Part shown: positions 35,857-56,391 of the stretch, one piece after another
Layout of the letters: the number at the start of each line of letters is the position of its first letter
Numbering within the stretch: the first letter of the stretch is position 1
Source of the DNA: Naegleria gruberi
Lineage: Eukaryota
DNA: 64,000 bases
NCBI GenBank assembly: GCA_000004985.1
Contig: GG738852.1
Direction: 5' to 3' (one strand)
The notes under the pieces: model-generated
Told to the model about the DNA's origin: nothing
Database searches by the model: none
What the model saw: the letters and a program-made list of their open reading frames with translations, nothing else
Program-made: the position numbers and the translations under genes

Positions 35857-36133
35857 TTTCTTGAATATTCAAGTAGTAACTGTTCGTGTTGACAATTTTT
35901 TTTTGGCATTGTGAAAGAAAATCAGCGAAAAAACAATGAAAAAGAGGCCGCAGAGGTAATGTGGATGAAAAGAGAATGTTTAGTTTTTAAGGGGTTACCA
36001 TTCGAGATGTTTAATTGGAAGCTTCGAACTTGTTTACAATATTTTTACAATTATGTTAAAAGTTAAATATATTCCTTGACACTCTAATTTCTTAAAGTGT
36101 TGTAATTGTGAAATTGATCTTGGTTGTCAAAAA

Positions 36134-37981: not shown

Positions 37982-38033
37982 AAACAGCAACAGTTCAATA
38001 ATTTGATGATGGAATTTAATCTCCTTCTTGGAA

Positions 38034-40931
38034 TTATTCAATTGATATTTTGCAAACTTGAACATTTTCCTTGTGTGATGAAATTCTAACAGTTGAAGTA
38101 TATCTTTGCTCATTAGGTCTCATATAATTGAGGAAGAAGGTACACAAAACGGTTGTACCACCTGTCAAGCCCTGAGAATAATTCGAATAATAATTGGTGG
38201 TTGCAATGTAATCACCTGGTTGGGCTTTCTTAATCATGTATTCCTCAGGTCCATAACCCTCTCTGAAATCTCTAGAGACCAGACCTTTAATTCTTGTATT
38301 GGGATGACCATAGTAGGCATGTTCTCCATAGGGCTTTGGTTCTTCAACATGTAGATCCAAATCTACCATATCTGTATCCCATGCCATACTAATACGGATA
38401 TCGAGATCAAAATTATAAATCAAACTTTGGTCAACTATTGGCAAATTTGGATCTTTGAGAAGGAGATGGTTCATTTCCAATGCAACTGTGAGTTCAATTT
38501 CAGAAAAACGTTCATCCCATTTTCCTACAATTACCTTATTGAATAATTGCATGGCTTCTTCATACTTTCCTAATCTTTCCTTAATGAGAGCCAAATCTCT
38601 GAATGATTGAGGTTCGAAAGAGTTGATTTTCTTGACCTTTTCGAATATCAATTCGGCTAATTCCAATTCATCAGCTTGATCCAATCTATATCCAACAATT
38701 CTGTATAATTGTACATTTTCCAATTCCAATTCAACAATATTGGATAAAATTCTTACTCCAAGAGTTTTGTTACCTTGTTTGGTCAAAAAGTAATCAGCCA
38801 CATCCAAGTAGAAAGCAGGAGAGTCCTTATATTCTTTTCTCTGGTTTAAATATTCAATGTAAGGATCTTGGGCTGTGGTGATAGCTTCGTAATATGTTGC
38901 ATTTGGAGTCCAAGGAGTGATAGTAATGGAACCTTCTATTGGACTGGATGATGAATCAGTTGTACTTGTAATCCTTTTACGTTTGCTACTAGTGGGAATT
39001 TCATTTTCTCTTCTATCATCACTTATATCATAACTTCTATCATCAGAGGTTTGAGAAAATCGAGTTCTTCCTAGCAAACTTCTCTTTTTCTTGCTTTGAA
39101 TTCTTTTAAGAGTAGCCATGTCAAAATTTACTCTATGCCAATCAGTACGAAGTTTCCATTTTTTGATAAATTGCTTTAGTTTTTTCTTTTCCTGTTTTTT
39201 TGTGGAAGACTCGTTTCGTTTTTGAGATTCAAAGAAGGACTCTCTCCACTTTGGCAGACTCTCTGGTGGAACAATATTGTATTTAATGTACTGACTCACT
39301 GATTCGAGTACGAGAAGAGAGGTTGATTCAGTGACAATACTGAACTCTTGACTAGTTTTTCTAATTTCATCCATGAATAGATGGGAGAATGAGGAAAGAG
39401 ATTGGATTTTTTCCTGAGCCCATAAATGTGGAACTATGGCAGATTCTTTGGAAACTTGTACCCTAGTAGTTGGAATATTAATTTCCTGTGTTTGAATAAT
39501 CTTGGATCCATATTTGAATGTGACACCAACTGAAACTGTTGGATTATTGAAATTTTTGATTTTACCAAATAGGTTGAAAACTTCTCCTTCTTTTACCCCA
39601 ACTGGTTCGTGTGGATAAACTTGTTCCATATCACAACTCTCATAATCAGCTACCAAAAAAAGTAATTGATTCTTTCCAATTATTTCCAATATCTTTTCAA
39701 TACTAGTTTCATTTGCATTCAAATAAGCTCCTCCCGATTTCACTGCAATATTTTTCAACAGTTGACTGTTTGTAATTGCAGAAGTGTTTAAAAAGAATAC
39801 TGGCTTCTCAAAAGTGCATTTGGGTGTCAGCTCTAAACCAAAGTTGTGAATTCCATTTGTGAATGCAATACAATAATCAACGTTGCTACAGATCAATTCT
39901 TCTCCAAATAGCTTCATATTAGAGGCACCATCATAGACTACGCTGTTTTGAATAAATAGTAAAAGAGATTCTTTTGAATTAAATTCTTGTTGGTCAACTA
40001 TGGTATTACTAAATAATGATAAGGTAATAGGACCATTTTCTAATCTATTGAGAATTAATTTCAAGAGATTTACATTTTCCTCATGTTGATCTGATTGACT
40101 GAGCGAAACATCCCAAATTATTTGAACCTTATTTCCAATGCTCTCTAATTTTAACTCTTCTGGAATTGCAGAAACAGGAAGTGAAACCATAAAGTAGTCA
40201 TTCTCAGTAGCTAACAAAATATTATCAGTGCTCTTTACCTTTCTTACCAACTCAATTGAGAAACCTGTTAAGCTTTTACTCAAATCACTTTTTTCCAATC
40301 TTTGAATGTTTGAATTAGAACCAGACTTAATTAACTTCTCTCCATTTTCCATTTTCATTACAATACTGGAATCGAAGTCATGGATGGCACTCTCATTAAA
40401 CATGAATTCAACATTAGCATCTCTCAAAAGATTAAATTCTTGATACGAAAGTGGAAACCAAGCAGAGGCGGATAATTTGTTTCCATTTTCAACAATTTCT
40501 TTCATGATGATTTGATACTTGACTCTAATGGTCTTATCTTGTCCAAACACGAGAGGATAAACTCGTGTTTTGAAGCAATTAGAATTGTCAACCTTCTCGG
40601 CAATTGAAACTTGTTTGTGAGATCTCACTTCAGATTCGAATATCTTTTTTGAACTCTCCTTCTCCACAGGTACAGCATCAATCAATTCTCCATCCACTTG
40701 CATTGCAAATCCAATAACAGATGCACCATCCGGAAGTGGCATGATCAATTCACCTCCTAAATCTCTCTTAGAAACTTCATTTCTAAAAGTCATGGTCGAA
40801 ACTATTTGTACAATAGGATAGATAATATTACATTGAATCTTGTGCCCAACAATTGGTAAGATTGTCGAAGCCTTGTCAGAGTATTCTTCACCCACTCTCA
40901 CATGAATAACCTCTCTTTTGGAATGTGTCAT
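38034..40931 (-). CDS. VIT domain + von Willebrand factor A domain protein (VWA5A/PARP4-like architecture) with C-terminal helical-repeat region
   Basis: N-terminal VIT-like region (IIYPIVQIVSTMTFRNE...MPLPDGASVIGFAMQVDGELIDAVPVEKE...RVYPLVFGQDKTIRVKYQI). A vWA-like DxSxS (IIWDVSLSQSD) follows. The C-terminus has TPR-like repeats and a conserved tail. Confidence 0.55.
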   Translation of the reverse strand: MTHSKREVIHVRVGEEYSDKASTILPIVGHKIQCNIIYPIVQIVSTMTFRNEVSKRDLGGELIMPLPDGASVIGFAMQVDGELIDAVPVEKESSKKIFESEVRSHKQVSIAEKVDNSNCFKTRVYPLVFGQDKTIRVKYQIIMKEIVENGNKLSASAWFPLSYQEFNLLRDANVEFMFNESAIHDFDSSIVMKMENGEKLIKSGSNSNIQRLEKSDLSKSLTGFSIELVRKVKSTDNILLATENDYFMVSLPVSAIPEELKLESIGNKVQIIWDVSLSQSDQHEENVNLLKLILNRLENGPITLSLFSNTIVDQQEFNSKESLLLFIQNSVVYDGASNMKLFGEELICSNVDYCIAFTNGIHNFGLELTPKCTFEKPVFFLNTSAITNSQLLKNIAVKSGGAYLNANETSIEKILEIIGKNQLLFLVADYESCDMEQVYPHEPVGVKEGEVFNLFGKIKNFNNPTVSVGVTFKYGSKIIQTQEINIPTTRVQVSKESAIVPHLWAQEKIQSLSSFSHLFMDEIRKTSQEFSIVTESTSLLVLESVSQYIKYNIVPPESLPKWRESFFESQKRNESSTKKQEKKKLKQFIKKWKLRTDWHRVNFDMATLKRIQSKKKRSLLGRTRFSQTSDDRSYDISDDRRENEIPTSSKRKRITSTTDSSSSPIEGSITITPWTPNATYYEAITTAQDPYIEYLNQRKEYKDSPAFYLDVADYFLTKQGNKTLGVRILSNIVELELENVQLYRIVGYRLDQADELELAELIFEKVKKINSFEPQSFRDLALIKERLGKYEEAMQLFNKVIVGKWDERFSEIELTVALEMNHLLLKDPNLPIVDQSLIYNFDLDIRISMAWDTDMVDLDLHVEEPKPYGEHAYYGHPNTRIKGLVSRDFREGYGPEEYMIKKAQPGDYIATTNYYSNYSQGLTGGTTVLCTFFLNYMRPNEQRYTSTVRISSHKENVQVCKISIE

Positions 40932-40977
40932 TTTTTTTTGATTGTTTTTGACTGATCACACTTTTAGCCTTTTTATT

Positions 40978-41135
40978 CACTACAAATCTAGGGTGAAAAA
41001 TAGCTTTTTAGCTTGGTCAATAGAATTTTCGCTGGAGGGGCGGATCCACTCGACAAATTGTCGACCGCTCTCTATGGTTTTGAGATTGTTCCAAGTTCGC
41101 TATTTTCAAAACTCTTGCAAAATTAATTTGTAGTG
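40978..41135. mobile_element. MITE-like non-autonomous element (158 bp) with perfect 10-bp terminal inverted repeats CACTACAAAT
   Basis: The 5' end CACTACAAAT (40978-40987) and 3' end ATTTGTAGTG (41126-41135) are exact reverse complements. The interior has a GC-rich core (gctggaggggcggatccactcgacaaattgtcgaccgc) and no coding capacity. It lies 47 bp upstream of the ATG of the VIT-vWA gene. Its 3' terminal 20 nt recur at 51121-51140. No clear target-site duplication is seen. Confidence 0.5.
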
Positions 41136-41389
41136 GGTTGAAGGTGATAGGAAAAAGTTATGATCGAAATGCTTTTTGAAATTACATAATTTTTCGTTTT
41201 TTCTTATTTGGTGTAACATTGAATCTCTCAAGAAAAGGAATTTAACTTTCATGAAACGCTGTTATCTGTTCTTTTGAGATTGTTGATCAATTTGTTTATT
41301 GATTTAGTACAGGCAATTCCGTTGTAAGAAAAACCATTATATAAGTATATTAATAAGACCAATTAAGGAATAGTTATAACATGTGGAAA

Positions 41390-41460
41390 TCGGGCGTGGT
41401 ATAGTGGTAGCATTCCAGACTGTCACTCTGGCGACCCGGGTTCAATTCCCGGCGTTCGAG
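41390..41460 (+). tRNA. tRNA-Asp (anticodon GTC)
   Basis: Acceptor stem tcgggcg/cgttcga (two G-U pairs). D-arm GTATAGTGGTAG. Anticodon stem-loop ccaga-CTGTCAC-tctgg with GTC anticodon. T-arm ccggg-TTCAATT-cccgg. Discriminator G. Downstream TTTT pol III terminator at 41467-41470. Confidence 0.8.
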
Positions 41461-41659
41461 TTAAAATTTTATGCTGTTTTAGTTTTTTAGAACTTTTCAT
41501 AATAGCTACATGTTCTAGACATTATAGTATATATGTGCTTCAATTTTCAAATTTTGGTGTTTTGTTTTTATTGAGATAATCACCAAAGTTTGGAACTCTT
41601 TTTTTCTATCACGAACTCGTGTTCAAGTTCCAGCCATTAACACACAGTTTACAAAAAAA

Positions 41660-42771
41660 ATGACTGAAAATCCACCTCTCATCATTGATAATGGTTCCTC
41701 TCTCATGAAAGCTGGTTTATCTGATGATGATGCTCCATGTGCAGTCTTTCCCACAGTTACTGGACGACAAAAAGTTTCCACCCTCATGGTTGGAATGAAT
41801 AACATTGACAAGACGTTCGTTGGAGATAATACATTTGGACTCAGGAGAGGTATAAATGTGTTCTATTATCCAATTGATCGTGGATTGATTACTGACTGGG
41901 ATCAAATGGAAAAGATATGGGATTACATATTTAATTCTGAATTAAGAGTTGCTCCAGAGTATCATGAAGTATTATTGTTAGAAATTCCATTAAATCCAAT
42001 GGAAACTAAAGAGAAAATGTCACAAAGCATGTTTGAAACTTTTAGGGTGAGAAGTTTGTGTTTGGCAAATCAATGTGCCATGTCAATGTTTGCAAGTGGT
42101 AGAATGACAGGTATAGTGTTGGAATCAGGCGATGGTGTTACCAATTCAGTGCCTATTTATGAAGGATACGCACTGTCACATGCCACTATCAGAGTTGAAT
42201 TAGGAGGTAAAGATCTGACAGATTATTTGAGGAAAATCTTAATGGAACGAGGATATAATTTCACCACAAAGCATGAAACTGAAATAGTAAGGTATATGAA
42301 AGAAAAAACTGGTTGTGTTGCTAGTAACTTTTTGGAAGAAACAATATCAGAAATTCCTTATGAATTACCGGATGGAAATATAATTCACTTGGAATAGAAA
42401 GATACAAAACTACTGAGATATTATTTCAACCAAATCTTGTTGGAATGGAGGTTGGTGGAATTCATGAAAATATTTTCACTTCTATTAGAAAGTCTGATTT
42501 AGATATTAGAAAGGAATTGTATTCGAATATTTTTCTTTCGGGAGGATCGACATTGTTCAATGGAATAGTAGAACGATTGTATAATGAATTGAGGGAATTA
42601 TCTCCCTCCTCAATGAACATTCGAATAACAGCACCACCAGAAAGAAAGTACACTGCATGGATTGGTGGTAGTATTTTCTCCAAATTATCAACCTTCCAAT
42701 CGATGTGCATAACCTTAGAGGAATATGAAGAGAGTGGATACAATATAATTCATAGAAAGGGCATCTTTTGA
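41660..42771 (+). CDS. Divergent actin / actin-like protein gene interrupted by a 1-bp frameshift (possible pseudogene or sequence error)
   Basis: Two ORF-track pieces (41660..42397 and 42445..42771) are collinear with actin: DNGSSLMKAGLSDDDAPCAVFPTV, WDQMEKIWDYIFNSELRVAPEYHEVLLLEIPLNP, IVLESGDGVTNSVPIYEGYALSHA, YELPDGNIIHL // GIERYKTTEILFQPNLVGMEVGGIHE, APPERKYTAWIGGSIFSKLSTFQSMCITLEEYEESGYNIIHRKGIF. The reading frame shifts by -1 at the GG at 42391-42392. Restoring one G gives ...IIHLGIERYK, which matches actin ...VITIGNERFR. Confidence 0.65.
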
Positions 42772-42899
42772 GACTGCCAGGTTTCCAGTCCATAACAATA
42801 AGACAATAAATGCCAGTAAGCATGATCCTAAGTCGTTTCTAATTTCAGGAATGAAAACAAAGGATAAGAAAATTACAATGATTGATTCAAAAGTTAAAA

Positions 42900-43017
42900 G
42901 ACTACAGCACCACAGGTTCCCAAGTTGTCTCCAACCTCAGTACTGATGTGGCTCGACGATGCTTAACTTCTCAAATCGGACGGGATGAGGTGTATTCATC
43001 GTGATATGGCCGTAGCC
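42900..43017 (-). rRNA. 5S ribosomal RNA gene (dispersed copy)
   Basis: The minus-strand sequence is ggctacggccatatcacgatgaatacacctcatcccgtccgatttgagaagttaagcatcgtcgagccacatcagtactgaggttggagacaacttgggaacctgtggtgctgtagtc. It aligns along its length with eukaryotic 5S (GCCTACGGCCATACCACC...CCCGTCCGATCTGCGAAGTTAAGC...GTACTTGGATGGGAGAC...TGGGAATACCGGGTGCTGTAGGC), and the 5'/3' ends pair as helix I. It is followed on the same strand by a TTTT terminator (plus 42896-42899). Confidence 0.85.
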
Positions 43018-44371
43018 ATTCATTACCTTAATACAATGAATATAAAGAATATTGAAAATCTCCGAAAGCAGTAAAAGGGACTGTGTGATTCTATTTCAAT
43101 AAATATTGTTTTTCATTTTGTAATTTTAGACGGGAAGCCTGCCAGGAATATGGCGACTATCCCGCTACAGTCTTTGACTGTATGAACAGTGAAGGCAACG
43201 AATCTATTGATTGTTGGTTCAGTAAGTTTGTTGTTTAGAAAAGCTTGCTACGTGACCATTTATTTATCACCTTTGAATTTTATCTATTTAGAAAGAGAAA
43301 CTTGTGGTTGATCAATAAACCTTCAAATTTCGAATTTGAGTCTTCAAATATTTGCTCTCACTTTTTCTTAGTTGAACTTCTTCATGAACAGGATTTACCT
43401 ACAAACCTGCGGCAAGTGTTTATTTCCAAGACAAAATAAAACCCTAACTCCAATACAGTGCAATGAAGATACTAAATGTTTAGTTGTAGTGCTTGTTCAT
43501 TCTGCTCGAGATTAGCTTTGAATACACAATCACCATGTTGATTAATAAAAGGAAAGTGTTGATTCCAATCTTAATAGAATTTTATAGATTAGGTTGTGTA
43601 CGGCGTAATTGTAATATTTTTTTCTTTTAATTGATAAAAAGTTTAAGGTACCAATCTGCATGTTCACAAATCCCCCATTCACAAACCATGGCTGGTTAGG
43701 AATGCAGCAATCATCTATGAACGAGGAAACCTACAGCGAAGCATGTTTCCAGTTCGATATCATGCTCAAGATATGTGACTACAGAGTCTTCATCTTGGTT
43801 AACCTCAAAGGTCAGATTGACTCAAAAAAGTCGAGTTTATGTATTCCTACAGAAAAGATCCTGTAGAAGTACAGTCAATGGTTTTATCAATCTTGCCACT
43901 AGGAGGTAGATATATTGCCCCAACGAGGAGAGGAATTGGAGATGGAAACTTATGGTTCGATTTATAATAATAAAATTCCTCATCATCAATAAAATATTTG
44001 AATAAGATTTTTTGCTGTAATGTTAGTAGTAGGGTGAGCGTGCAATAAGAAAGCTGTAGTAAGGCGAGAACTTGGGCGGTAGATTCATTGGAATTTCAAC
44101 TGCTCAACTTCATGTTGTTATTTGATGAGTCAACAAGTCTTGAGAGCAAAACAAGCCAGGATCGAAATAGTGAATCGATTTTCCAAGTTTGACCTGTTGA
44201 AAGAGAACAAGGTAAAGAGCAGCTGCTCACCACAAAGTTGTATGTTGTTTGGTTGTTGTGTGCGACTGCACAATTCAACCAAGGTATCTAACGTTCTTGT
44301 TAAATTCCGTACGTTACACAAAACCAACAAACTTTCAACACTCAAAAAAATTAATTTAATCCACTATCACA

Positions 44372-46356: not shown

Positions 46357-48581
46357 ATGTCAGGAGATAATGAAGGGTTTATTGAAACCCTACTAATCAA
46401 TCTCTTCACAATACCAATAACAACAATAGCATCATCATTCCCTCATCACCATCACCAACAATATTCAACTAATCATGTCATGACCATAATGGCAAACGAA
46501 ACCTTTCCAACAATACTCAATAATAGTCAAACAAGTAATTCTACTTCCAATCGAACGGATTGTTCTCCCATTCTCTTCAACCTAGGCAAATGGAGTACTG
46601 AGAAGGAACCAAAGTTTGAATTTGGTTTATGTCCAGATTCAATCATCACTCCAATATTTTCATCAATTTTCCTTGCTCTCTTTCTTGGAATTTGTTTAAT
46701 TTCACTGATGGGAATGATATGGAAGAGAAGGAATGGATTTATACATGCAAGAAATCCAATTTACATGTTCATGACTATTGTGGCTGCATTGATATTCATT
46801 GGAGGTAATGGATTGCGATTCATGATTGGACGAAAGCTATTTCCCTGTGCAATTTATACTGTACTGTTTTTTGTATTGCCTCCACTTGTGAGTTTACCAA
46901 CAATTTTGAGATGTTTGAGATTGTTTTTCATGTGAGTTTTAATTGTTTAATATTATTAATATTATTTAATTAATATTTTGGTTTATTAATGTTTTTTTCT
47001 GGAATGTTTATTGTTACTGGATGGATTAATAATAGGTATAAATTGAATTTACAAAAAACTAAATTATTCGAATTGAAGAATATGGGAAAATCGAATCAAG
47101 CTATTCAAACAGGAGAAAATGTAAATTCACAAATTCAATCATTTGAAATGAATGTAACAAATAGTCAAAATAATTCATCATTAGGAGTTGTGGATTCGAA
47201 TAGTAATAGCTTAACTATTTCATCAAGTGAAAAACAAATTTATGGAAATGAGGATTTAATTCACAGAAGGTCAAACATTACCGAAATTATCAATAATACC
47301 AATCCTAGTACTACCATTGATCCAGAGAAGGCCATTGAACTCAATGCTAAGAGTATTGATATCAAGACAGCTGGAGTTTCACCAATTTTGAAATCTGTCG
47401 ATAATCCAAACGGAAATGTGGATTTTTCAACATCTCATTATTCGAATGGATCTTCAACAATGGAAAACATGTCTCAACAAGATCTGGTTGATTCCTCTCC
47501 AAGACTTTTCAAAAACAATGACAATTTATTTGATGTAGATGTTACAGAAACAGATGATAGTGATTCGTATTCAGATATTGACAGTCGATCCACTTGGGCA
47601 TTTAGAGATTTATCTGATTTACAATCAGAAGTTAGAAGGTTTCAAATATTTACCTTCATGTCAAGTTACAAGTTTGTTCTCATTCTCTATTCTACATTTG
47701 TCATTTTCCAAATAGCTTTGTGGTTAATTTTGGGAGGTGTTGAGGAAGCTCTCTTCTCCAACTCACTAAGTCATACTGGTGAGAGAATCTTTCTTTTGGA
47801 AGGTGGAATGCTTGTTTTTGATAGAGGATGTTCAATGAGCACCAAGATGGTCCTCATCATTGCAGGAGAATCAGTTATTTACATTATTTTTGAAATTGTA
47901 GCACTGATATTATGTATCAGATCAGACAGAGACACATGGAGTGTGAAAAAAGAGGCCATTCTCATTATCATCTTTCAAGTTATAGCAATAATTGCATTTG
48001 TAGTGACTGGTTTAATTGATGAAATTGTTACATTGACAGATTACTTTATTCCATATGGGTATTCACTCATGACCTTTTCACTTGTTGAAGTTTTCACTAC
48101 TGTGCTATTGCCAGTTGTGTATGCAATAGTGAGTGAGTATAGGAATTTAAGGAGAATGGATACAGAGTTTGACTCTGAGTTGGAACAAGTTCTACGTAAT
48201 AGAAAATCATTCAATAAGATGTTGGACTTTGCACGTCGAAGTTATGCACCTGAGAGTGTGTTGTGCTATCGAGATATTCAGAGATTTAAAAAGTTGAGAG
48301 CTAACAATCGAAGAAAGATGGCTCATCACATTGTAAATTCATATCTAACGAGTGGATCTCCTTTGGAATTGAATATTGACAATATTATAATAAGAAAAAA
48401 GGAATTTTCTGATAGGGTTTCTAATACCAATGAAAAGCTTCCAAGAGACATGTTCAATCAGATCCAAGACCATTGTTTGGTTGATATGAGAGACATTTTT
48501 GATCGTCTGAGATCTTCTGATAAGGAGATTTACCAAATGATACAAGATTGGAGGATGAAGCAATCAAAATTAATTAACTGA
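46357..48581 (+). CDS. 7TM receptor-like protein with C-terminal RGS domain (7TM-RGS), paralog A, 2 exons
   Basis: Exons are 46357..46931 and 47036..48581. The intron runs gtgagt at 46932 to AG at 47035 (104 nt). Splicing restores ...LRCLRLFFM/YKLNLQKTKLFEL, collinear with the intronless paralog C (...AYFMYKINLQKTKLFE). It has an extracellular Cys pair (CSPILFNLGKW...GLCPD), 7 TM helices with a long Asp/Ser-rich loop after TM3, and an RGS domain (FNKMLDFARRSYAPESVLCYRDIQRFKK...AHHIVNSYLTSGSPLELNI...IQDHCLVDM..FDRL). Confidence 0.7.
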
Positions 48582-48821
48582 ATTTGATTCAATCATTTAT
48601 TGTAACAACGGTTATTATGATTATTTCAAAATATTAGTATGGCAAATTGACATAAAAGAAGTTAGATATCAGCATCAGAATCAGAATGTACCTGAATAGA
48701 GAATGCCATATCTGAATCAGTAAATACTCAAATAGGATTTTGTTTGATTTTGAAGTTGTTTCTCGACGATATAAAAGGTTGACTTGGTTCTGGCTTAATT
48801 CAAAACAATAATCAGAAAAAA

Positions 48822-49298
48822 ATGAAAAAGATTTCAATCATTATTCTTTTAGCATTGCTATTGTTGGCAGTTATCATTGGCATTGAATGTCAACAAAATC
48901 AAGATCCTTACTCTTATGACACTTATGGTTATGCTCAACAACAAGGAGGACAACAACAACAACCAAGTTCCCAACAAGGTTCTCAAGATCAACAAGGTTC
49001 ACAAGACCAACAAGGTTCTCAAGATCAACAACAATTCGATCCAAATCAACAAGGTCAAGTTGATCCTAACCAACAACAACAACAAGAAATGTTCGAACAA
49101 ATGAGCTATGGTTACAGAAGACCTTATAATTATAGACCATACTACAGACCATACTATAGACCTTATTATAGACCTTATTATAGACCATACTACAGACCAT
49201 ATTATAGACCATATTATAGACCATATCATAGACCATATCATAGACCATACAATTACAATCAATATGGAAGTCATGGTGGAAATTATGGAAAATATTAA
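48822..49298 (+). CDS. Secreted low-complexity protein: signal peptide, Gln-rich GSQDQQ repeats and a C-terminal (RPYY)n Tyr/Pro/Arg repeat
   Basis: ATG start and a hydrophobic signal (MKKISIIILLALLLLAVIIGIEC). GSQDQQ occurs three times. It ends with YRRPYNYRPYYRPYYRPYYRPYYRPYYRPYYRPYYRPYHRPYHRPYNY encoded by a 12-nt tandem DNA repeat. Confidence 0.6.
   Translation: MKKISIIILLALLLLAVIIGIECQQNQDPYSYDTYGYAQQQGGQQQQPSSQQGSQDQQGSQDQQGSQDQQQFDPNQQGQVDPNQQQQQEMFEQMSYGYRRPYNYRPYYRPYYRPYYRPYYRPYYRPYYRPYYRPYHRPYHRPYNYNQYGSHGGNYGKY
49117..49252 (+). repeat. 12-nt tandem repeat (agaccatactac/agaccttattat variants, ~11 units) encoding (RPYY)n
   Basis: Direct inspection: tatagaccttattatagaccttattatagaccatactacagaccatattatagaccatattatagaccatatcatagaccatatcat. 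Coding, inside the preceding CDS. Confidence 0.8.
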
Positions 49299-49618
49299 AT
49301 TGTTAACAATAAAGAAGTGTGACCTTTGTGAGAGAATATTGAAACCTTTTTATCTGCTGGACATGAGTTGTTTTCAATCCTTTCATTTCTTGAACAATAT
49401 CTAATTGCTTGTTGGAGTTCTTCGAATAATCTGTCATGTCATTGAAACAATGCCTCTGCAGAAAACTTTGAATATATCTCCAATACAGAACAATTTTCAA
49501 GTGCTTAATGGTCTCTTGTACCGTAAAGTCCTGAGAGATGTGGTCTACAACCATGGCTATTAAGTTTCGTCAAAAAGTTTGTTATACCACATGTTGCTGT
49601 TTACACTACTATAACAAT

Positions 49619-50692
49619 TTATTCATTGAGTTGGAAAAGAGCCCAATCTACTCTTGGTTGAATGGTCTTTCCATCTTCCATCACATTAGAAATCATGTGT
49701 CCAGCAAACATTTCAGTCTTATACTCTGTGCCATTATCATCGACCAAAATTGGAACATTGACGTATCCTCTTGGAATATCTTGTGAGTCAATCTTTGGCC
49801 ATGCACCAGGTTGACAATCTCCTCTCCATATTCCCTTCTCTGAAAATACACAGAAAGTTGTAATCCATCCACCCAAATAACGAGGACCTGATCCACCGCC
49901 TGAAATGTGAGCTACTCTATTCCACCACTCCTTATTGGGATTTCCCTTGATTGATTCTACAAAATGATCCAAAACAGGGAATAACAAAGCAGACCATTGT
50001 TCCATATATCCTTCCTTTGTGTCAAATTCCAATAATCTATTAGCTCTTTCTCTAATCTTAACCCAGTCCTCAACCTCCCCCAATAATGTAACACTTGGCA
50101 AGTTACAACACAACGAAAACTTGTAATCAAAGTAATTCTTCATAGCAGCCATAAGGACCACTGCTCCAACCATCCTATCATTCTCAGTGGTGGTAGTAAA
50201 ATCTGGCATGACCCATTCTCTTACGCTTGGATCCTTAATATTCTGTGCAATTTGATTGGTCATATCCAATGAGAGGGAAACATAATCAGCCGAGAATAAA
50301 TTACCAGAACCGTAGACTGTTAGCTGTTTCTTTCCATCAAAGTCTACAAATTTGCCTCTCAATTCTTCTGACTTTCCATTCACATAATTTGAAAATTGAG
50401 TACAAATAGCTAGCCATACATCATCAGGTTTAATGACCAAATTATGGTGATAGGAATAGGCTTGAACAGCACTTTTTACAAAAGAGTTTGATCCCAACTT
50501 GATCATGGATTCATCTATTTTACCAAAACTTGATGTAATCGGTTGCTTTACATAAACTTCCTTTTCTTCAGGAGTCTTTGAAGAGGAATAGTTTCTCTCC
50601 TTTCCAGGAAGAATTTGTTCAGGTTTAAAGGCTTGTTGGGGTTTGGAAACATTTTCAACCTTCACCTCTGTAACTTGGAATGTAATGGGCAT
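49619..50692 (-). CDS. Hypothetical conserved protein (~357 aa; possibly DUF4419-like)
   Basis: The ORF-track start at 50806 is GTG; the first ATG is at revcomp 50690-50692 ([10 protein letters not shown]...). It is globular-looking and Trp/Gly-rich ([37 protein letters not shown]...[19 protein letters not shown]). The family assignment is tentative. Confidence 0.4.
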
Positions 50693-51069
50693 TTTTTTTC
50701 GTGTTGTAATTTTGTTCCTCGTTACTGTAAGGTGGAGTTTATTAATAGGAAAAGGTGTAGCTATTATTTGGGTTGAACAACCACACACAGGTATTGTAGA
50801 GTTCACCTTTGGTGAACCACTCTTATGATGAACTCAGCTCAATTAGCTCAATTGAATTGTAATCTAATTGTTGTTTGTCCAAGTTAACACTTAGTAAAAT
50901 ACAATGTTTGTAAATACTGTATATAATACAAATGTGGCATTGTATTCTTGATTGACTTCCTGTTGAGCCAATGGTAGGTCTAATTCAAACGCTTTGACCA
51001 GGTCATTACAAGTGCAATGACCATCAAATTCTATCCTATAGTTGAGAGGAATCTGAGATATCAGGATGT

Positions 51070-51140
51070 AATCTACACTGAAAATAGCCATCGATTCAAA
51101 GGCTTGCCAGGGGTGACTTGGGCAAAATTAATTTGTAGTG
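51070..51140. mobile_element. Truncated/short copy of the CACTACAAAT-TIR MITE-like element
   Basis: gcaaaattaatttgtagtg (51121-51140) is identical to the 3' terminus of the element at 40978-41135. Upstream, ctacactgaaaatagc resembles that element's 5' region (ctagggtgaaaaatagc). Confidence 0.35.
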
Positions 51141-51237
51141 CAAGGTCAGATTTCCAAAATTGATAATTACAATTATTGAAATACTCAATGAAGTCTTGAC
51201 TGTAGTAATTGACGTTTCTCTTGGTTGGAATGATTTC

Positions 51238-53177
51238 TTACTGTGTAGAATTTGTTGATTGAACTGAATTGTTCAAAGATTTGAGTTCTTTGACAATGTC
51301 ACCAATTTGCTTGTTGGAGCTCTTCAATCTTTCGAATAGATCTGTCATGTCGTTAAGGCAATGATCTTGGATGAGTGCAAACAAATTGTGTGAAATATTT
51401 GGATTTTCCTCAATTAACTTTTCAATTTCACTCCTCCTTTCTTCAATTTTGCTAATATTCAATTCTAGTGGAGCACCAGCAGTAAGGTAAGCCTTCAAAA
51501 TGTGAGTGGCTGCCTTCTTTCTGTTTGCCTTTCTTGCCTTTTTAAATCTCTGTATATCTCTCCAACACAAAACGCTCTCAGTGCAATAACTTCTTCTTGC
51601 AAAGTCAAGTAAGATTTGATAGGTCTTTTTGTTTTTCAAAACCTTCTCAATTCCTGTTTCTTTCACAGCTTGTTTCCTTTCAGTGTCATTGTTGGATTGT
51701 GAGAGCTTGCTCTTTCTGTCGCTGATAAAGGCATACATGGCAGGCATTCCAACACACATAATAATTTCAATCAGCTCATAAATCCATAACGCCAATCCAG
51801 TTGGAACCAAATAGTCCAATAACTTTTCTGTAATATCCAACATGCCAACAACTATAAAAATGATGGCAGCTCCAACCTGAACAATGATTAGAAGGAGTGT
51901 TTCTCTCTTAATTCCCCATGTATCTCTATCAGCCATAACTGCCAAGATGAGGAATACCAATTCTAAGAAGATGTAGACCAGTGCATGGACACCAACAATC
52001 AAGACTGTTGTAGTAGTGAGACCACAACCTCTTTCAAAGACAAACAGACCACCATCAAAGAGGAATAATCTCTTTTTGTTTGGATCTGTACTTGCATTAT
52101 AAGTCACCTCCTCAACAATTCCTAAAACTACCCAAATTATAACTCCAACAAGGAATGCAATGGCATAGGTGGAAAGGATAAACTTTTTGCTGATGAAAAA
52201 GTTCAGAATGGCCAATTGTTTAACTTGTTTTTTAACATCACTAACTTCCTTAAATTCACTCATATTCCAAGTTGAAACGTCAGCTTGTGATTCAGAATCT
52301 CCATCAGTTGTTGAATCATCCCAATTTGGAGGATCGAGTCCAATATCCTCATAATTGTTAGGATCAAAGTTGTTAACCACCTTGTGAATTTGTTCTTGCC
52401 TTCCTGCCATGTCTTCCAATCCAAATATTTTAGAGTCTGATTTTTTCAATTCCACCTCAGTTTGTTCCTTTAGCTGGTTAATTGGTACAATGCCATTCGG
52501 GTTTGTCACTGATGTAGCACCAACAGTGCTGTCTTTTGCTGAAACATCAAAAAGTTTCATCTTTAAAAGATTAATCTTGTACATGAGATAAATTCTCAAC
52601 ATTCTGAAAACTGTCGGTAGCATTACAGCTGGAGGTAATGTAAAGAAACTAAAAGTAATTATACCACAAGGGAATATCTTTCGTCCGATGATTATTCTCA
52701 ATGTTAATCCAACAACAAATACGAAACCAGCACATAAAGTCATGTACAATGATGTGGGATCTCTTGCCATAATATGTCCACTCTTCCTCTTAAATATCAC
52801 TCCTGTTGTTGTCAAAAAGAAATGTCAACAAACAATTTAAAACAATAAATTATTGAAACTTTACCAATTGCACTGAAAATAACACTTATTATATAAACAA
52901 TCACAAAGGTCAACACCAAAGCAAAACTAATATAAGTATCAGGACACAGCCCATAATCAATTGTGCCATTATTTCCCTCCCGAGACCATCCTCCCAAGTT
53001 GAATAATATAGGATCACATGCAAAAGCACTACTATTAGTTGAATTCAATAATCCAATGAATGGACTTGTATCATTTAAAATTCCTCTTCCAATCATCCAC
53101 CCATTGATATTCTCCCGAAGGAACACCTCCAGAGCATCTTCCATTAATCCAAAGTGTGTGGGTTGACTTGCTGGCAT
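51238..53177 (-). CDS. 7TM-RGS receptor-like protein, paralog B, 2 exons
   Basis: Minus-strand exons are 52865..53177 and 51238..52802. The intron runs gtaaag (revcomp of 52863-64) to cag (revcomp ending 52803), 62 nt. The splice joins ...FSAIG to GVIFKRKSGHIMARDPTSLY..., collinear with paralog C (LTGVGVFWKRKSSHVEARSPIY). Same extracellular Cys pair (CDPILFNLGGW...GLCPD), 7 TM and C-terminal RGS domain (YQILLDFARRSYCTESVLCWRDIQRFKKARKANRKKAATHILKAYLTAGAPLELNI). Confidence 0.7.
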
Positions 53178-53190
53178 TTTTTTTTGATAG

Positions 53191-53205
53191 GTTGGCGCGG
53201 TTTTT
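53191..53205. promoter_or_regulatory. E2F-like GC motif GTTGGCGCGGTTTTT in the divergent promoter between 7TM-RGS B and the Rieske-domain gene
   Basis: TTGGCGCGG/CCGCGCCAA is close to the palindromic E2F consensus TTTSGCGCSAAA. It sits in a 240-bp AT-rich intergenic region. Confidence 0.2.
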
Positions 53206-53416
53206 CTGTACAGTGCGATGACATTGAAATGAATGATAAAAGAGGAAGGGTTTTTTGTTAAAGAGGAATTTTCATGTATTTAATTTGTAAAATGTTTTTT
53301 TTTATTCGAAACAGTCTTCTCGTTTGTAAAGTACATGTATTAAGAATTGCACACCTTGAAATGTTTACTAGTTAATAAAATTAAATTTACAATAATATTA
53401 ATTATATTTAAAAAAA

Positions 53417-54355
53417 ATGTTCAATAGATTTCTTGGTGGTGGATCCTCCAATCATCACCAATTGCCACCAAACAACAATAACACAAATAATAATAACATG
53501 TTGGCACCACCTCGTAAGAGATCTTCATCCTCCAGTTCTGATCAAACAACAACTCTAACCACTATTATTCCGAAGAATATCAAACCTTTACCTCCAATGA
53601 CTACCTCTCCTACTCTGATTGATACTACCAACAACATCAGTAATTCCTCCTATACAGCATTCAATTCATCCTCCTCACAACAACAATCCAGTGATTTTAA
53701 TAATACAACAAGAATTTATTTATCTTCATCATCAGGGAATAGATTAATATTAATTAAAAATTTAAATCAAATTCCATTGAATGGAAGGTTTGTTTTTAAT
53801 GATGAGGAGAGTAGGAGATTGATAGCTATATTCAGGACAAAAAAGAATAAGATTTATGCTATTGATGAATATTGTTATCATATGGGAGGTCCTTTGGAGA
53901 AGGGTGATATTGAAGATTTGATGGTGAATTATAAAGATAGCAAAACGAGGAAACATTCATGTGTAGTGTGTCCTTGGCATCATTATTATATTAGTTTGAA
54001 AACTGGTGAATCATTCTATTTGGATATTGATCATACTTATAAATCAAAGGGACAAAGACAACGTACCTATCCTCTGTATTATAATAGTGAAACGATGGAT
54101 TTGTATTTGGAATTGGATTCGAGATTGGAATTGAGTTATTCACCAACAGTTAATTGTACTGGTTGCGAGAGTGATAAAAATCCTATTAAACCTTTGGATT
54201 CGGATCACTATGTAAAAATTCATCAACAAAAGTATTCTAATATTGAGAGTAGTAATACTAAACCTCATAGTGTTGTAAATTTGAAAGAGTTGAAAGAAAA
54301 ACGAGAATTGAAAAAGATTAATCCAGATATTGATTTTCAAATCAAAAAGGAATAA
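53417..54355 (+). CDS. Rieske [2Fe-2S] domain protein with Asn/Ser-rich N-terminal region
   Basis: Rieske ligand boxes CYHMGGPL and CPWHHYYISL (CxH...CxxH, 24 residues apart) in the C-terminal half. The N-terminal ~120 aa are poly-Asn/Ser low complexity. Confidence 0.6.
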   Translation: MFNRFLGGGSSNHHQLPPNNNNTNNNNMLAPPRKRSSSSSSDQTTTLTTIIPKNIKPLPPMTTSPTLIDTTNNISNSSYTAFNSSSSQQQSSDFNNTTRIYLSSSSGNRLILIKNLNQIPLNGRFVFNDEESRRLIAIFRTKKNKIYAIDEYCYHMGGPLEKGDIEDLMVNYKDSKTRKHSCVVCPWHHYYISLKTGESFYLDIDHTYKSKGQRQRTYPLYYNSETMDLYLELDSRLELSYSPTVNCTGCESDKNPIKPLDSDHYVKIHQQKYSNIESSNTKPHSVVNLKELKEKRELKKINPDIDFQIKKE

Positions 54356-54390
54356 TAAGAACGAATTCAAAACCTCATGATTTATTAAAA

Positions 54391-56391
54391 TCAAACTTGA
54401 TCTGAAAATGTTACCGTTGGATTCATCAACGTTAACGTAGATGTGGAATTTACAAGATTGGAACTTGTTGCGGAGGTATCTAACTTGCTTTCAGTATAGG
54501 TAGATGCTTTTTTGTAATTCTTTACAAAATCTGAGATTACATTATTAGAATTTTTCAATCTATCAAACAAATCTGCCATGTCATTCAAACAATGGTCCTG
54601 CACAGCTTTGAAAATATCAGTTGGAATTTTGCCATTGGTTGATTCTATTTGCTTCACTTGTTCAAGAATTTCGGCACTTTTGAAGGTAATCTTTGGCATG
54701 TTAAGTTCTAATGGAGCACCAACGGTCATGTAAGCATTGACAATGTGGTTTACTGCCTTTTTCCTCTGACTTCTCTTTGCCTTCTTGAATCTTTGAATAT
54801 CTCTCCAACACAAGACACTCTCAGTGCAGTAACTTCTTCTAGCAAATTCGAGTACAATTTTGAACATTTTACGATTTTTGAGAACCTTCTCTAAGCCACT
54901 TTCAGATTCGGTATTTTTGGCTAGTTTCTTGTCAAATATTATGGAACGAATGACTGGAATAGTGACACACACAATTACTTCAATGAACATGTACCCCCAC
55001 AAAATGAAACCATATGGGAAATAGGCATCTGTAACAGATGCGATGAAATCAATATTAGCAGCAACTACAAACAAAATAGCACTAGTTAATTGAATAACAA
55101 TCAAAATCATAGTCTCCCTCTTAATTCCCCAAGAGTCTCTGTCTGCTGTAAAGGCAAATATTAAAAATACCAATTCCAAGAGAATGAACAAGATTGATTC
55201 TACAGAAATCATAATGGTAGTTGTAGTATTCATACCACAACCGTGTGAAAATAGAAGAATACCACCCTCATTCAAGAATATTCTCTTCTTGTTTGGATCT
55301 GTACTTGTATTGTAAATTGCTTCCTCAGCAACACCAACAATAAGCCAAATAATTACACCAAATAAGAAGGAAAGAATGTAAATCACAGTAATGAATTTGA
55401 CACTGATTAGGAAATTGAAAATTTTCAACTTTCTCAATTCTTTTTGCACATCTGCCAAATCCTTATATTCACTCATATTCCAAGTTGAAACGTCTGCTTG
55501 TGAATCATTATCAGTATCAAAATTACTTTCATCATCATCATCTGTAACAGTATTTGAAGTAGTTCCATTAATGGAATCAAGTTGAGGTTCATATTCATGA
55601 TTTTTTGCAATTACTCTAGAGAGACGTTCTTGTCTTTTCACTATACCATCCTCTTGTCCAAAGAATTGTTGTTGTTGGGTTCCACTTTGAGTTTCAATTG
55701 TAAAATTATCAATTGCTTGTTTCAATTCAATATTACCTGAAGTGTTATCACCTCCTGTATTTGTAGTACTGGTATTTTGTAAATTAGTCGGTGATTCGAA
55801 TAGTTTAGTTTTCTGTAAATTAATCTTGTACATGAAATATGCTCTCATTAATCTGAAAATAGTAGGTAATGTCACAGCTGCAGGAAATGTGAAAAAGCAA
55901 ATAGTTAACAAACCACAAGGGAATAACCTTCTCGAGATGACAATTCTCAAAGTCATTCCCACAATGAAAAAGAAAGCAGCACATAAAGTAAAGGCGAGAT
56001 AGATTGGACTTCTCGCTTCGACGTGACTGGACTTTCTCTTCCAGAAAACACCTACACCTGTCAATAATACAGTAATTATATATACAATCATAAATGCTAG
56101 ACATGTGGCAAAGGCAAAATAGGTATCATTGCAGAGACCGTATTGAGATGTAACGTTCATTTCACGAATCCATGGCGTACCGATGAGAGAGGAATCACAA
56201 ACTTTAGTATTATTGGTGGTGAAATTTAATGTTGAATTATCTGAAAGCATGGAGAATGGTTCCATTAATGAATGTTGAAAATATGAATTAATCAGGAGAG
56301 CTGCGATATTGTTGGATGGTGTGATGGCATATTGTTCAAAGAAAGGAGAGAGTTGCTGACTGTTGGCAACTTGAAATTGTTGCAGAGACAT
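54391..56391 (-). CDS. 7TM-RGS receptor-like protein, paralog C (intronless, 666 aa)
   Basis: Single ORF with ATG start. N-terminal ectodomain with sequons and a Cys pair, 7 TM helices (TM1 FATCLAFMIVYIITVLLTGVGVF ... TM7 YFPYGFILWGYMFIEVIVCVTIPVI) with a long acidic loop after TM3, and a C-terminal RGS domain (FKIVLEFARRSYCTESVLCWRDIQRFKKAKRSQRKKAVNHIVNAYMTVGAPLELNM). Confidence 0.75.
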   Translation of the reverse strand: MSLQQFQVANSQQLSPFFEQYAITPSNNIAALLINSYFQHSLMEPFSMLSDNSTLNFTTNNTKVCDSSLIGTPWIREMNVTSQYGLCNDTYFAFATCLAFMIVYIITVLLTGVGVFWKRKSSHVEARSPIYLAFTLCAAFFFIVGMTLRIVISRRLFPCGLLTICFFTFPAAVTLPTIFRLMRAYFMYKINLQKTKLFESPTNLQNTSTTNTGGDNTSGNIELKQAIDNFTIETQSGTQQQQFFGQEDGIVKRQERLSRVIAKNHEYEPQLDSINGTTSNTVTDDDDESNFDTDNDSQADVSTWNMSEYKDLADVQKELRKLKIFNFLISVKFITVIYILSFLFGVIIWLIVGVAEEAIYNTSTDPNKKRIFLNEGGILLFSHGCGMNTTTTIMISVESILFILLELVFLIFAFTADRDSWGIKRETMILIVIQLTSAILFVVAANIDFIASVTDAYFPYGFILWGYMFIEVIVCVTIPVIRSIIFDKKLAKNTESESGLEKVLKNRKMFKIVLEFARRSYCTESVLCWRDIQRFKKAKRSQRKKAVNHIVNAYMTVGAPLELNMPKITFKSAEILEQVKQIESTNGKIPTDIFKAVQDHCLNDMADLFDRLKNSNNVISDFVKNYKKASTYTESKLDTSATSSNLVNSTSTLTLMNPTVTFSDQV

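What the first reader, a model, noticed from the sequence alone, without database searches (positions are those of the whole stretch)
46357..56391. Cluster of three paralogous 7TM-RGS receptor-like genes within 10 kb, interleaved with a secreted repeat protein, a DUF4419-like gene and a Rieske-domain gene
Three genes (46357-48581 +, 51238-53177 -, 54391-56391 -) share one architecture. Each has a glycosylated ectodomain with a conserved Cys pair (C..ILFNLG.W...GLCPD), 7 TM helices with a long acidic loop after TM3, and a C-terminal RGS domain. Two carry a single phase-conserved intron at different positions; the third is intronless. This points to local duplication with intron gain or loss, or retroposition. 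7TM-RGS proteins (AtRGS1 type) are self-contained GPCR-GAP modules known from plants and scattered protists. A tandem family like this is a candidate chemosensory expansion.
Basis: partly seen in the sequence, partly recalled or inferred. Interest (0 to 1): 0.6.

Follow-up and report, generated by a model that had tools for sequence, protein, structure and literature searches.

The report
Three Naegleria 7TM-RGS receptor-like genes
The window is from the amoeba Naegleria gruberi and holds three old, intact copies of a membrane receptor-like protein with a built-in G-protein "off switch" (RGS domain), a protein class already described in Naegleria, so this adds members to a known class.

Summary
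Three paralogous genes lie at the stated coordinates: g1 46357-48581 (+), g2 51238-53177 (-) and g3 54391-56391 (-). They are 38-49% identical. Each has a small Cys-pair ectodomain with N-glycosylation sequons, seven TM helices, a 108-187 aa acidic loop between TM3 and TM4, and a C-terminal RGS domain above Pfam's threshold. Both introns are confirmed by an ortholog-bearing contig from a related Naegleria, but their phases differ (2 and 1).

The window is Naegleria gruberi; g2 and g3 are NAEGRDRAFT_64076 and 64078. The class is published: Bosch et al. 2022 report 28 7TM-RGS proteins in N. fowleri and show GAP activity for three of the four RGS domains they tested.

What is added here:
- The RGS boxes keep the Galpha-contact residues.
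- g1 and g2 are under strong purifying selection (dN/dS about 0.1).
- The 7TM module is shared with other Heterolobosea and Anaeramoeba.
- It has no detectable sequence homology to the AtRGS1 7TM domain.
- In two AlphaFold models it most resembles class C GPCR bundles.
- The g3-g2 tandem pair predates Naegleria speciation.
- A decayed copy of g2's 3' end sits beside the DUF4419 gene, and both are missing from the related contig.

A chemosensory role is untested.

The parts
46357..46931 (+). g1 exon 1: N-terminal ectodomain (4 sequons, Cys69/Cys92), TM1-TM3
   Evidence: The ortholog exon in L002 (4627-4121) is 70% aa identical.
46932..47035 (+). g1 intron, 104 nt, GTGAGT..AATAG, phase 2
   Evidence: Same position and phase in the L002 ortholog (GTGAGT..ATTAG).
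47036..48581 (+). g1 exon 2: acidic TM3-TM4 loop (aa 205-391), TM4-TM7, RGS domain (about 48171-48578), stop codon
   Evidence: dN/dS against L002 is 0.125 overall, 0.04-0.05 in the TM parts and 0.07 in the RGS part.
52865..53177 (-). g2 exon 1: ectodomain (4 sequons, Cys54/Cys78) and TM1. This exon is missing from the public model NAEGRDRAFT_64076.
52803..52864 (-). g2 intron, 62 nt, GTAAAG..AACAG, phase 1
   Evidence: Same position and phase in L002 (GTAGAG..AACAG).
51238..52802 (-). g2 exon 2: TM2-TM3, acidic loop (aa 191-298), TM4-TM7, RGS domain (about 51286-51660), stop codon
   Evidence: 100% identical to P0001 / XP_002680987. dN/dS is 0.087.
54391..56391 (-). g3, intronless, 666 aa (= NAEGRDRAFT_64078): ectodomain, 7TM region about 56121-54913, RGS domain about 54903-54487
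   Evidence: The ortholog in L003 is also intronless.
49366..49491 (-). Decayed partial copy of g2's 3' end: two pieces of the RGS box with an internal deletion, no TM part.
   Evidence: tblastn 50% over 38 aa, E 1.3e-4. blastn to the g2 and g3 3' ends and to L002.
49619..50806 (-). DUF4419 gene, unrelated and interleaved. The likely ATG is at 50692. Together with the relic it is absent from the orthologous interval of L002.
48822..49298 (+). Repeat-protein gene with a signal-peptide-like N-terminus, then Q-rich and (PYYR)n repeats. Unrelated and interleaved; conserved between g2 and g1 in L002.
53417..54355 (+). Rieske-type ferredoxin gene (NAEGRDRAFT_64077). Unrelated; lies between g3 and g2; absent from the 126-nt spacer in N. 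lovaniensis.

Best explanation
The three genes are intact, selectively maintained members of the Naegleria 7TM-RGS family.

What each protein is:
- A GPCR-fold seven-helix membrane domain. The N-terminus is predicted to face outward and carries a small Cys-pair, sequon-rich ectodomain.
- A conserved Cys at the top of TM3 and a second in the TM4-TM5 loop, in the places used by the canonical GPCR disulfide.
- A cytoplasmic C-terminal RGS box tethered at the membrane.

Most likely mechanism:
- By analogy with the N. fowleri 7TM-RGS proteins and AtRGS1, the RGS box acts as a GTPase-accelerating protein. It keeps fast-exchanging ('self-activating') Galpha subunits in the GDP state.
- An extracellular cue acting on the 7TM/ectodomain relieves that brake, by conformational change, phosphorylation or removal from the membrane.
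- The long acidic, Ser/Thr-rich loop between TM3 and TM4 has conserved FGxED and DSESxADVSTW motifs. It is a candidate regulatory or phosphorylation element.

Shown versus inferred:
- Shown here: gene structures, domain content, GPCR-like fold of the models, retention of Galpha-contact residues, purifying selection, ancient paralogy.
- Inferred: GAP activity of these particular proteins, topology, ligand control, and any sensory role.
For: Identity:
- The organism is N. gruberi.

RGS domain:
- RGS HMM is above threshold in all three.
- The profile-to-PDB alignment places family 'SYCpESvlcW' on RGS16 'EFSEENLEFW', 'aPLELNi' on 'aPKEVNI', and 'DlFeRL' on RGS10 'DSYsRF'.
- By the published RGS4 numbering (recalled, not checked here), E87, N128, D163 and R167 are therefore kept. 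They are invariant in the family alignment and correspond to E524, N564, D607 and R611 in g3.

7TM domain:
- Seven TM helices with pLDDT 70-88.
- C159 and C385 (top of TM3 and the TM4-TM5 loop) and the ectodomain pair C65/C87 are invariant or nearly so.

Selection:
- dN/dS is 0.125 for g1 and 0.087 for g2, and 0.04-0.10 in the TM and RGS parts.

Biochemical precedent:
- N. fowleri has 28 7TM-RGS proteins. RGS boxes of Nf 7TM RGS2, 3 and 4 accelerate GTP hydrolysis on Nf Galpha subunits, including self-activating ones. This works through the canonical interface, because it is lost in the switch-1 G-to-S mutant (PMC9283941).
- The AtRGS1 mechanism is described in PMC3718340.
Against: - No GAP assay, expression data or localisation exists for these three proteins.
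- The tested N. fowleri proteins are much larger (over 1,200 aa) and have GPS, EGF or lectin ectodomains that these lack.
- The residue equivalent to RGS4 N88 is Ser in all three.
- The structure models come from shallow alignments (13-14 sequences, mean pLDDT about 61). The ectodomain and the long loop are unmodelled.
- Topology was not run through a dedicated predictor.
- No ligand is known for any protist 7TM-RGS protein.
Confidence: 0.8

Rival explanations
1. The proteins are conventional agonist-activated GPCRs that act as exchange factors (GEFs) for Galpha. The fused RGS box only sharpens or terminates the signal. They would then be a receptor with a built-in desensitiser, not a GAP-type receptor.
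For: - The 7TM domain has a bona fide GPCR fold with a conserved TM3 / TM4-TM5-loop Cys pair.
- Naegleria has both slow-exchanging and fast-exchanging Galpha subunits, and both types interact with 7TM-RGS proteins (PMC9283941).
Against: - No 7TM-RGS protein has been shown to have GEF activity.
- No sequence similarity to any GPCR with known G-protein coupling: no Pfam hit and no GPCR hit against PDB sequences.
- The TM3-TM4 loop, a G-protein contact region in GPCRs, is replaced by a disordered acidic insert of 108-187 aa.
Confidence: 0.12
2. The RGS box is a non-catalytic docking or effector module, as in RGS-RhoGEF, GRK or axin. It would bind active Galpha or another partner without GAP function.
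For: - The domain is divergent: 35-45 bits to PF00615, and single-sequence phmmer finds only RGS22 at E 0.0024.
- The RGS4 N88 equivalent is Ser.
- Some RGS domains are known to have lost GAP activity (PMC3971589).
Against: - The equivalents of E87, N128, D163 and R167 are invariant across the family.
- dN/dS in the RGS part is 0.07-0.10.
- Three of the four 7TM-RGS boxes tested in N. fowleri were active GAPs; the fourth could not be assayed.
Confidence: 0.08
3. The cluster arose by recent local duplication, and intronless g3 is a retrocopy of an intron-bearing neighbour.
For: - Three paralogs lie within 10 kb.
- One copy has no intron.
- A decayed partial copy at 49366-49491 shows that local duplication does happen at this locus.
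Against: - The copies are only 38-49% identical.
- g2 groups with N. lovaniensis P0003 and N. fowleri P0009, not with g3 or g1.
- N. lovaniensis has the same g3-like then g2-like tandem pair on one strand.
- The g3-like N. lovaniensis gene is also intronless.
- The g2 ortholog there has its single intron at a third position, in TM3. Intron turnover therefore explains the pattern.
Confidence: 0.05

Closest known systems
Naegleria fowleri 7TM RGS proteins (Bosch, Jeck & Siderovski 2022, PMC9283941)
   Same: - Same genus.
- Same architecture: 7TM followed by a C-terminal RGS box.
- Part of a large lineage-specific family (28 in N. fowleri).
- g2 has an N. fowleri ortholog, FDP41_005716 (P0009).
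- GAP action on self-activating Galpha is shown for three members.
   Different: - The characterised members, Nf 7TM RGS1-4, are over 1,200 aa and have GPS, EGF or lectin ectodomains.
- g1-g3 are 625-706 aa with an ectodomain of only 83-97 aa, no Pfam domain in it, and a long acidic TM3-TM4 loop.
- None of this compact subfamily has been assayed.
- Whether the N. fowleri ortholog is among the published 28 could not be checked. Its public model lacks the RGS end.
Arabidopsis AtRGS1 and plant RGS1 proteins
   Same: - 7TM followed by a C-terminal RGS box.
- The RGS boxes are homologous (hhalign Prob 95.9%, E 5e-9).
- The E320-equivalent Glu and the '(M/L)E(L/V)N' Asn are shared.
- Expected role as a membrane GAP for a self-activating Galpha.
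   Different: - The 7TM domains show no detectable sequence homology (Prob 2% and 0.27%).
- Plants have one copy with a very short N-terminus and a short TM3-TM4 loop.
- Only a short pre-TM1 motif looks alike (GLCPDTY versus GGCPSDY), and that match is not significant.
Class C GPCR 7TM domains (mGlu, GABA-B, TAS1R, GPR156, GPR158, GPRC5D)
   Same: - GPR158 also works with an RGS protein (RGS7), though in trans.
   Different: - No sequence-level match: no PF00003 hit at E <= 0.1 and no GPCR in a profile search of PDB sequences.
- No Venus-flytrap or Cys-rich ectodomain.
- Structural identity is only 6-15%.
Trichomonas vaginalis 7TM-RGS proteins (Bradford et al. 2013, as cited in PMC9283941 and PMC3971589)
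   Same: - 7TM-RGS proteins of an 'excavate' protist that pair with self-activating Galpha subunits.
- The Naegleria 7TM module is also found in another metamonad, Anaeramoeba.
   Different: - No Trichomonas sequence was compared here.
- The primary paper was not available in the library.

Membership tests
RGS domain (PF00615) | Match to the family HMM above the gathering score | tested here: met
   35.5, 45.0 and 43.1 bits against a cut-off of 23.9.
RGS domain (PF00615) | All-helical RGS fold | tested here: met
   [not shown]
RGS domain (PF00615) | Galpha switch-contact residues (RGS4 E87, N88, N128, D163, R167) | tested here: met
   The E87, N128, D163 and R167 equivalents are invariant in 9 family members. 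The N88 equivalent is Ser in g1-g3. RGS4 numbering is recalled from Tesmer et al. 1997 and was not checked here.
RGS domain (PF00615) | GAP activity on a Galpha subunit | not testable with these tools
   Needs a biochemical assay. The precedent is in N. fowleri relatives only.
7TM-RGS architecture (GAP-type receptor) | Seven TM helices N-terminal to the RGS box in one polypeptide | tested here: met
   Hydropathy shows 3 + 4 helices. AF2 helices in g3: 91-121, 129-152, 159-198, 331-362, 389-416, 421-446, 462-493, then RGS. The same is seen in the paralog model.
7TM-RGS architecture (GAP-type receptor) | GPCR-type helix packing | tested here: met
   [not shown]
7TM-RGS architecture (GAP-type receptor) | N-terminus outside and RGS in the cytoplasm | tested here: inconclusive
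   Consistent with sequons and Cys pairs in the N-terminus and the TM4-TM5 loop, and with basic TM1-TM2 and post-TM3 segments. No topology predictor or experiment was used.
Plant AtRGS1 family (orthology) | 7TM domain homologous to the plant RGS1 7TM domain | tested here: not met
   hhalign Prob 2%, and 0.27% with a broad 29-sequence profile.
Plant AtRGS1 family (orthology) | RGS box homologous to the plant RGS1 RGS box | tested here: met
   hhalign Prob 95.9%, E 5.4e-9 over 95 columns.
Class C GPCR (PF00003, 7tm_3) | Sequence match to the 7tm_3 profile or to class C receptors | tested here: not met
   No Pfam hit in the TM parts at E <= 0.1. A profile search of PDB sequences at E <= 10 finds no GPCR.
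Class C GPCR (PF00003, 7tm_3) | Large Venus-flytrap or Cys-rich extracellular domain | tested here: not met
   The ectodomain is 83-97 aa with two Cys and no Pfam domain.
Adhesion-like Naegleria 7TM RGS1-4 subgroup | GPS motif, EGF or lectin domains in the ectodomain | tested here: not met
   No such Pfam hits. Proteins are 625-706 aa, against over 1,200 aa for Nf 7TM RGS1-4.
Heterolobosean/metamonad 7TM-RGS module (defined here) | Conserved ICL1 'K/R-R-x-x-x-x-x-x-A/S-R', 'GRxxFPC' before TM3, 'GC' in the TM4-TM5 loop and 'D-x-W' after TM5, with the module linked to an RGS box | tested here: met
   The TM-only profile finds 211 cluster representatives at E <= 1e-3. Named sources are Naegleria, Willaertia, Acrasis, Pharyngomonas and Anaeramoeba. 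8 of 10 distant hits scanned carry PF00615.

The most novel reading that the evidence does not exclude
The 7TM module of these genes defines a separate, ancient GPCR-fold family of 'excavate' protists (Heterolobosea plus at least the metamonad Anaeramoeba). It would be structurally nearest to class C receptors. It would have been fused to an RGS box independently of the plant AtRGS1 fusion, so receptor-GAP signalling would have arisen convergently at least twice. In the Naegleria/Willaertia branch it acquired a long acidic, Ser/Thr-rich TM3-TM4 insert that could act as a phospho-regulated switch replacing the usual G-protein-contact loop.
Probability: 0.3. Interest if true: 0.55.

Novelty: new member of a known kind. 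Interest (0 to 1): 0.3.

Why it matters
7TM-RGS proteins are the proposed 'receptor' of the self-activating G-protein cycle, which may be the older eukaryotic mode of G-protein signalling. No ligand or regulatory mechanism is known outside plants.

This compact Naegleria subfamily is small (about 650 aa), lacks adhesion-type ectodomains, and is under strong constraint. N. gruberi is non-pathogenic, which may make these genes convenient for GAP assays and structural work.

Two results bear on whether receptor-GAPs arose once or several times:
- The TM domain is not detectably related to the AtRGS1 TM domain.
- In models it looks class C-like.

In practical terms, the public g2 model lacks its first exon and therefore TM1 and the ectodomain. 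Genome-wide 7TM-RGS counts based on TM prediction would miss it.

Tried and rejected
Searches that failed or added nothing:
- The afdb50 fold library was unavailable.
- Single-sequence phmmer of the g3 RGS box against PDB found only RGS22 weakly, so a family profile was used.
- The word-indexed homolog search with the TM alignment found only 8 proteins. The exhaustive profile search found 211.
- Contig look-ups for the N. gruberi proteins P0001 and P0007 found nothing on record. Whether P0007 and P0012 (same 233-kb scaffold) are also in tandem is unknown.
- Bradford 2013 and Anantharaman 2011 were not held under the ids tried.

Questions left open:
- An exact look-up of my spliced g1 protein found no match. 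None of the 291 fetched proteins exceeds 54% identity to it. I cannot say whether g1 is annotated under another model.

Ideas considered and rejected:
- Assembly duplication: identity is only 38-49%.
- Pseudogenes: ORFs are intact and dN/dS is about 0.1.
- Recent tandem duplication or retroposition: orthologs exist in other species, and an intronless ortholog exists in N. lovaniensis.
- A functional operon-like link between the receptors and the DUF4419, Rieske or repeat genes. These neighbours are not conserved in N. lovaniensis, and DUF4419 is not conserved in L002.
- No Galpha gene was found among window ORFs of at least 180 aa.


Full report
**Source of the window.** The g2 protein is 100% identical to a Naegleria gruberi predicted protein on a 938,756-bp scaffold. 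Exact look-ups give g2 = NAEGRDRAFT_64076 (XP_002680987), the Rieske gene = NAEGRDRAFT_64077, and g3 = NAEGRDRAFT_64078. G+C content is 28-36%.

**Gene models.**
- ORF listing and direct reading of the splice regions, followed by assembly in a script, give three genes.
- g1: 46357-46931 + 47036-48581 (+), 706 aa. Its intron is 104 nt, GTGAGT..AATAG, phase 2.
- g2: 53177-52865 + 52802-51238 (-), 625 aa. Its intron is 62 nt, GTAAAG..AACAG, phase 1.
- g3: 56391-54391 (-), 666 aa, uninterrupted.
- Splicing restores motifs that are continuous in the other paralogs.
- A 10.8-kb contig from a related Naegleria (L002, Logan SRR25266747, about 78% nt identity) carries orthologs of g2 and g1. Their introns are at exactly the same positions and phases but differ in length and sequence. 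This is good comparative support for both introns.
- The g3 ortholog in the same sample (L003) is also intronless.
- The public g2 model (510 aa) starts at Met116 and lacks exon 1, so it lacks the ectodomain and TM1.

**Check of the observation.**
- All three proteins match PF00615 (RGS) above the gathering score.
- Hydropathy gives three hydrophobic helices, a long hydrophilic gap, then four more.
- The gap is 187, 108 and 120 aa long, with pI 4.05-4.28 and 31-42% S/T/N/Q.
- Each N-terminal region has 4-5 N-x-S/T sequons and two Cys.
- Pairwise identities are 39.5% (g1/g2), 38.5% (g1/g3) and 49.4% (g2/g3).
- The interleaved genes are as described: a repeat protein with a signal-peptide-like N-terminus, DUF4419 and a Rieske-type protein.
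The two introns differ in phase, and the ectodomain motif is degenerate in g3.

**RGS domain.**
- A profile of nine family RGS boxes finds R4-type and other RGS structures in PDB.
- The printed alignments put the family's invariant Glu of 'SYC(T/P)ES' on the second Glu of RGS16 'SEEN'. They put the invariant Asn of 'PLELN' on the Asn of 'PKEVN'. They put the invariant Asp and Arg of 'D(L/I)F(D/E)RL' on 'DSYsRF' of RGS10.
- In RGS4 numbering (recalled from the RGS4-Gialpha1 structure paper, not checked here), E87, N128, D163 and R167 are kept and N88 is Ser.
- The domain therefore looks competent for the canonical Galpha interface. Activity itself is untested.

**7TM domain.**
- No Pfam family matches it at E <= 0.1. 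A family profile finds no GPCR among PDB sequences even at E <= 10.
- AlphaFold2 on a 14-sequence family alignment gives seven TM helices with pLDDT 70-88. The ectodomain and the long loop are disordered.
- The GPCR fold is therefore well supported. The class C preference is reproducible, but the margin is small and it rests on predicted models.
- Invariant residues include a Cys at the top of TM3 and a Cys in the TM4-TM5 loop (C159 and C385 in g3), where GPCRs have their conserved disulfide. The ectodomain pair C65/C87 is also conserved. Disulfide formation is inferred.

**Relation to AtRGS1.**
- I recovered genuine plant RGS1 proteins using a recalled AtRGS1 sequence. A 305-aa A. thaliana protein matched it at 100% over the 66% of the query it covers. 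Camelina RGS1 matched at 93% over the full length. I then aligned twelve of these proteins.
- Profile-profile comparison shows the RGS boxes are homologous (Prob 95.9%, E 5e-9).
- The TM domains are not detectably related: Prob 2%, and 0.27% with a 29-sequence profile that includes short-loop relatives.
- 'AtRGS1 type' is thus correct for the architecture and the likely mode of action, but not as a statement of family membership of the receptor part.

**Extent of the family.**
- An exhaustive profile search with the TM-only alignment finds 211 cluster representatives at E <= 1e-3, and 143 at E <= 1e-10.
- Named members come from N. gruberi, N. lovaniensis, N. fowleri, Willaertia magna, Acrasis kona, Pharyngomonas kirbyi and the metamonad Anaeramoeba flamelloides.
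- Eight of ten distant hits scanned carry an RGS domain, so the TM module and the RGS box travel together.
- Many distant members have almost no TM3-TM4 insert (0-40 aa). The long acidic loop is therefore a feature of the Naegleria/Willaertia branch.
- At least seven N. gruberi genes belong to the compact subfamily: g1, g2, g3, P0007, P0012, P0015 and P0291.

**History of the cluster.**
- A neighbour-joining tree places g2 with N. lovaniensis P0003 and N. fowleri P0009. It places g3 with P0005 and P0007, and g1 loosely with P0015.
- N. lovaniensis has two adjacent genes on one strand (L001 7484-9874 and 10001-12338). Their best window matches are g3 and g2 respectively. The tandem g3-then-g2 order therefore predates the split of these species.
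- Flanking genes are not shared. The Rieske gene is absent from the 126-nt spacer there.
- The N. lovaniensis g2 ortholog has its only intron inside TM3 (FFILPP|AMMLPT, phase 1). That is a third position, so introns have turned over in this family. Retroposition is not needed to explain intronless g3.
- dN/dS against the L002 orthologs is 0.125 (g1) and 0.087 (g2). It is lowest in the TM segments (0.04-0.08) and the RGS box (0.07-0.10), and highest in the g1 loop (0.31).

**What is already known.**
- Bosch, Jeck and Siderovski (PMC9283941) describe 28 7TM-RGS proteins in N. fowleri. They show GAP activity of three of their RGS boxes on Nf Galpha subunits, including self-activating ones. They also show loss of that activity with the RGS-insensitive Galpha mutant.
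- The same paper proposes an adaptive radiation for sensing extracellular cues.
- De Mendoza et al. count 229 RGS proteins in N. gruberi and note 7TM-RGS proteins in many 'bikonts' (PMC3971589).
- The finding is therefore a set of new, uncharacterised members of a known kind.

**Verdict.**
- The evolutionary reading (recent duplication, AtRGS1 type) needs correction.
- The functional reading (chemosensory) remains a reasonable but untested inference that is already in the literature.
- Interest is modest. The class C-like fold, the lack of TM homology with plants and the distribution across excavate lineages are the parts worth following up.

Noticed in passing
window 49366-50806 (minus strand); L002 1662-2153: A decayed partial copy of g2's RGS-coding 3' end lies just downstream of the DUF4419 gene. 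It is two pieces with an internal deletion and translates as '..VLYWRYIQSF|LQRHCFNDMTDYSKNSNKQLDIVQEMKGLK'. In the related contig L002 the g2 stop is 62 nt from the repeat-protein gene, and both DUF4419 and the relic are absent. The spacer after the relic matches the spacer after the g2 stop in L002; the DNA after the live g2 stop does not. This suggests insertion of a roughly 2-kb DUF4419 block with duplication of the target, or deletion between the direct repeats in the other lineage.
   Followed up: yes
window 52865-53177 (g2 exon 1): The public model of g2 (NAEGRDRAFT_64076, 510 aa) starts at Met116 and lacks exon 1, so it lacks the ectodomain and TM1. The gene call in the related contig is truncated the same way. 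The N. fowleri ortholog model (560 aa) lacks the RGS end. Censuses of 7TM-RGS proteins based on such models would miscount.
   Followed up: partly
L001 about 10562-10757 (N. lovaniensis ortholog of g2): The ortholog's single intron is inside TM3 (phase 1). That position is intron-free in g2, and g2's own intron site is continuous in the ortholog. This indicates intron loss and gain between Naegleria species.
   Followed up: yes
g1-g3 just before TM1 (e.g. g3 aa 84-92); plant RGS1 aa 9-15: The short motif 'YGLCPDTY' immediately before TM1 resembles the invariant 'GGCPSDY' immediately before TM1 of plant RGS1. It was the only segment hhalign paired between the two TM domains, and the match is not significant (Prob 2%).
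   Followed up: partly
plant RGS1 proteins: Several plant RGS1 proteins carry precomputed weak hits to PF00003 (class C 7tm_3). The Naegleria models also resemble class C bundles most closely. This may be coincidence or may hint at a deep link. It was not tested further.
   Followed up: no
window 41390-41460 (+), 42899-43017 (-), 43650-43878 (-): Three non-coding RNA genes lie within about 5 kb upstream of g1: tRNA-Asp(GTC), a 5S rRNA (106 bits) and a U3 snoRNA (78 bits).
   Followed up: no
window about 32233-43620 versus L002 7287-9587: About 11 kb of the window corresponds to only about 2.3 kb in the related contig. The block includes the VIT-domain gene, an actin-like exon, tRNA-Asp and the 5S rRNA gene. 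This points to an indel or rearrangement between the lineages.
   Followed up: no
window 24383-26242 (+); protein P0111: The window has a gene with seven DUF4116 repeats. One family relative (P0111) combines a truncated TM part, an RGS box and eleven DUF4116 repeats.
   Followed up: no
window 48822-49298 (+): The repeat protein has 18-nt QQGSQD repeats (48972-49031) and ten 12-nt PYYR repeats (49129-49249). The long ORFs on the opposite strand and in other frames here (48999-49274, 49108-49404) are by-products of the repeats.
   Followed up: partly
window 18258-20138 (+): A gene combines an F-box-like domain with a RasGEF domain.
   Followed up: no
L003 flanks (28-2524 and 5263-5808): In the related sample, the genes flanking the g3 ortholog match nothing next to g3 in the window, including the Rieske gene. 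The g3 neighbourhood is therefore not conserved between these lineages, or the contig is too short to show it.
   Followed up: partly
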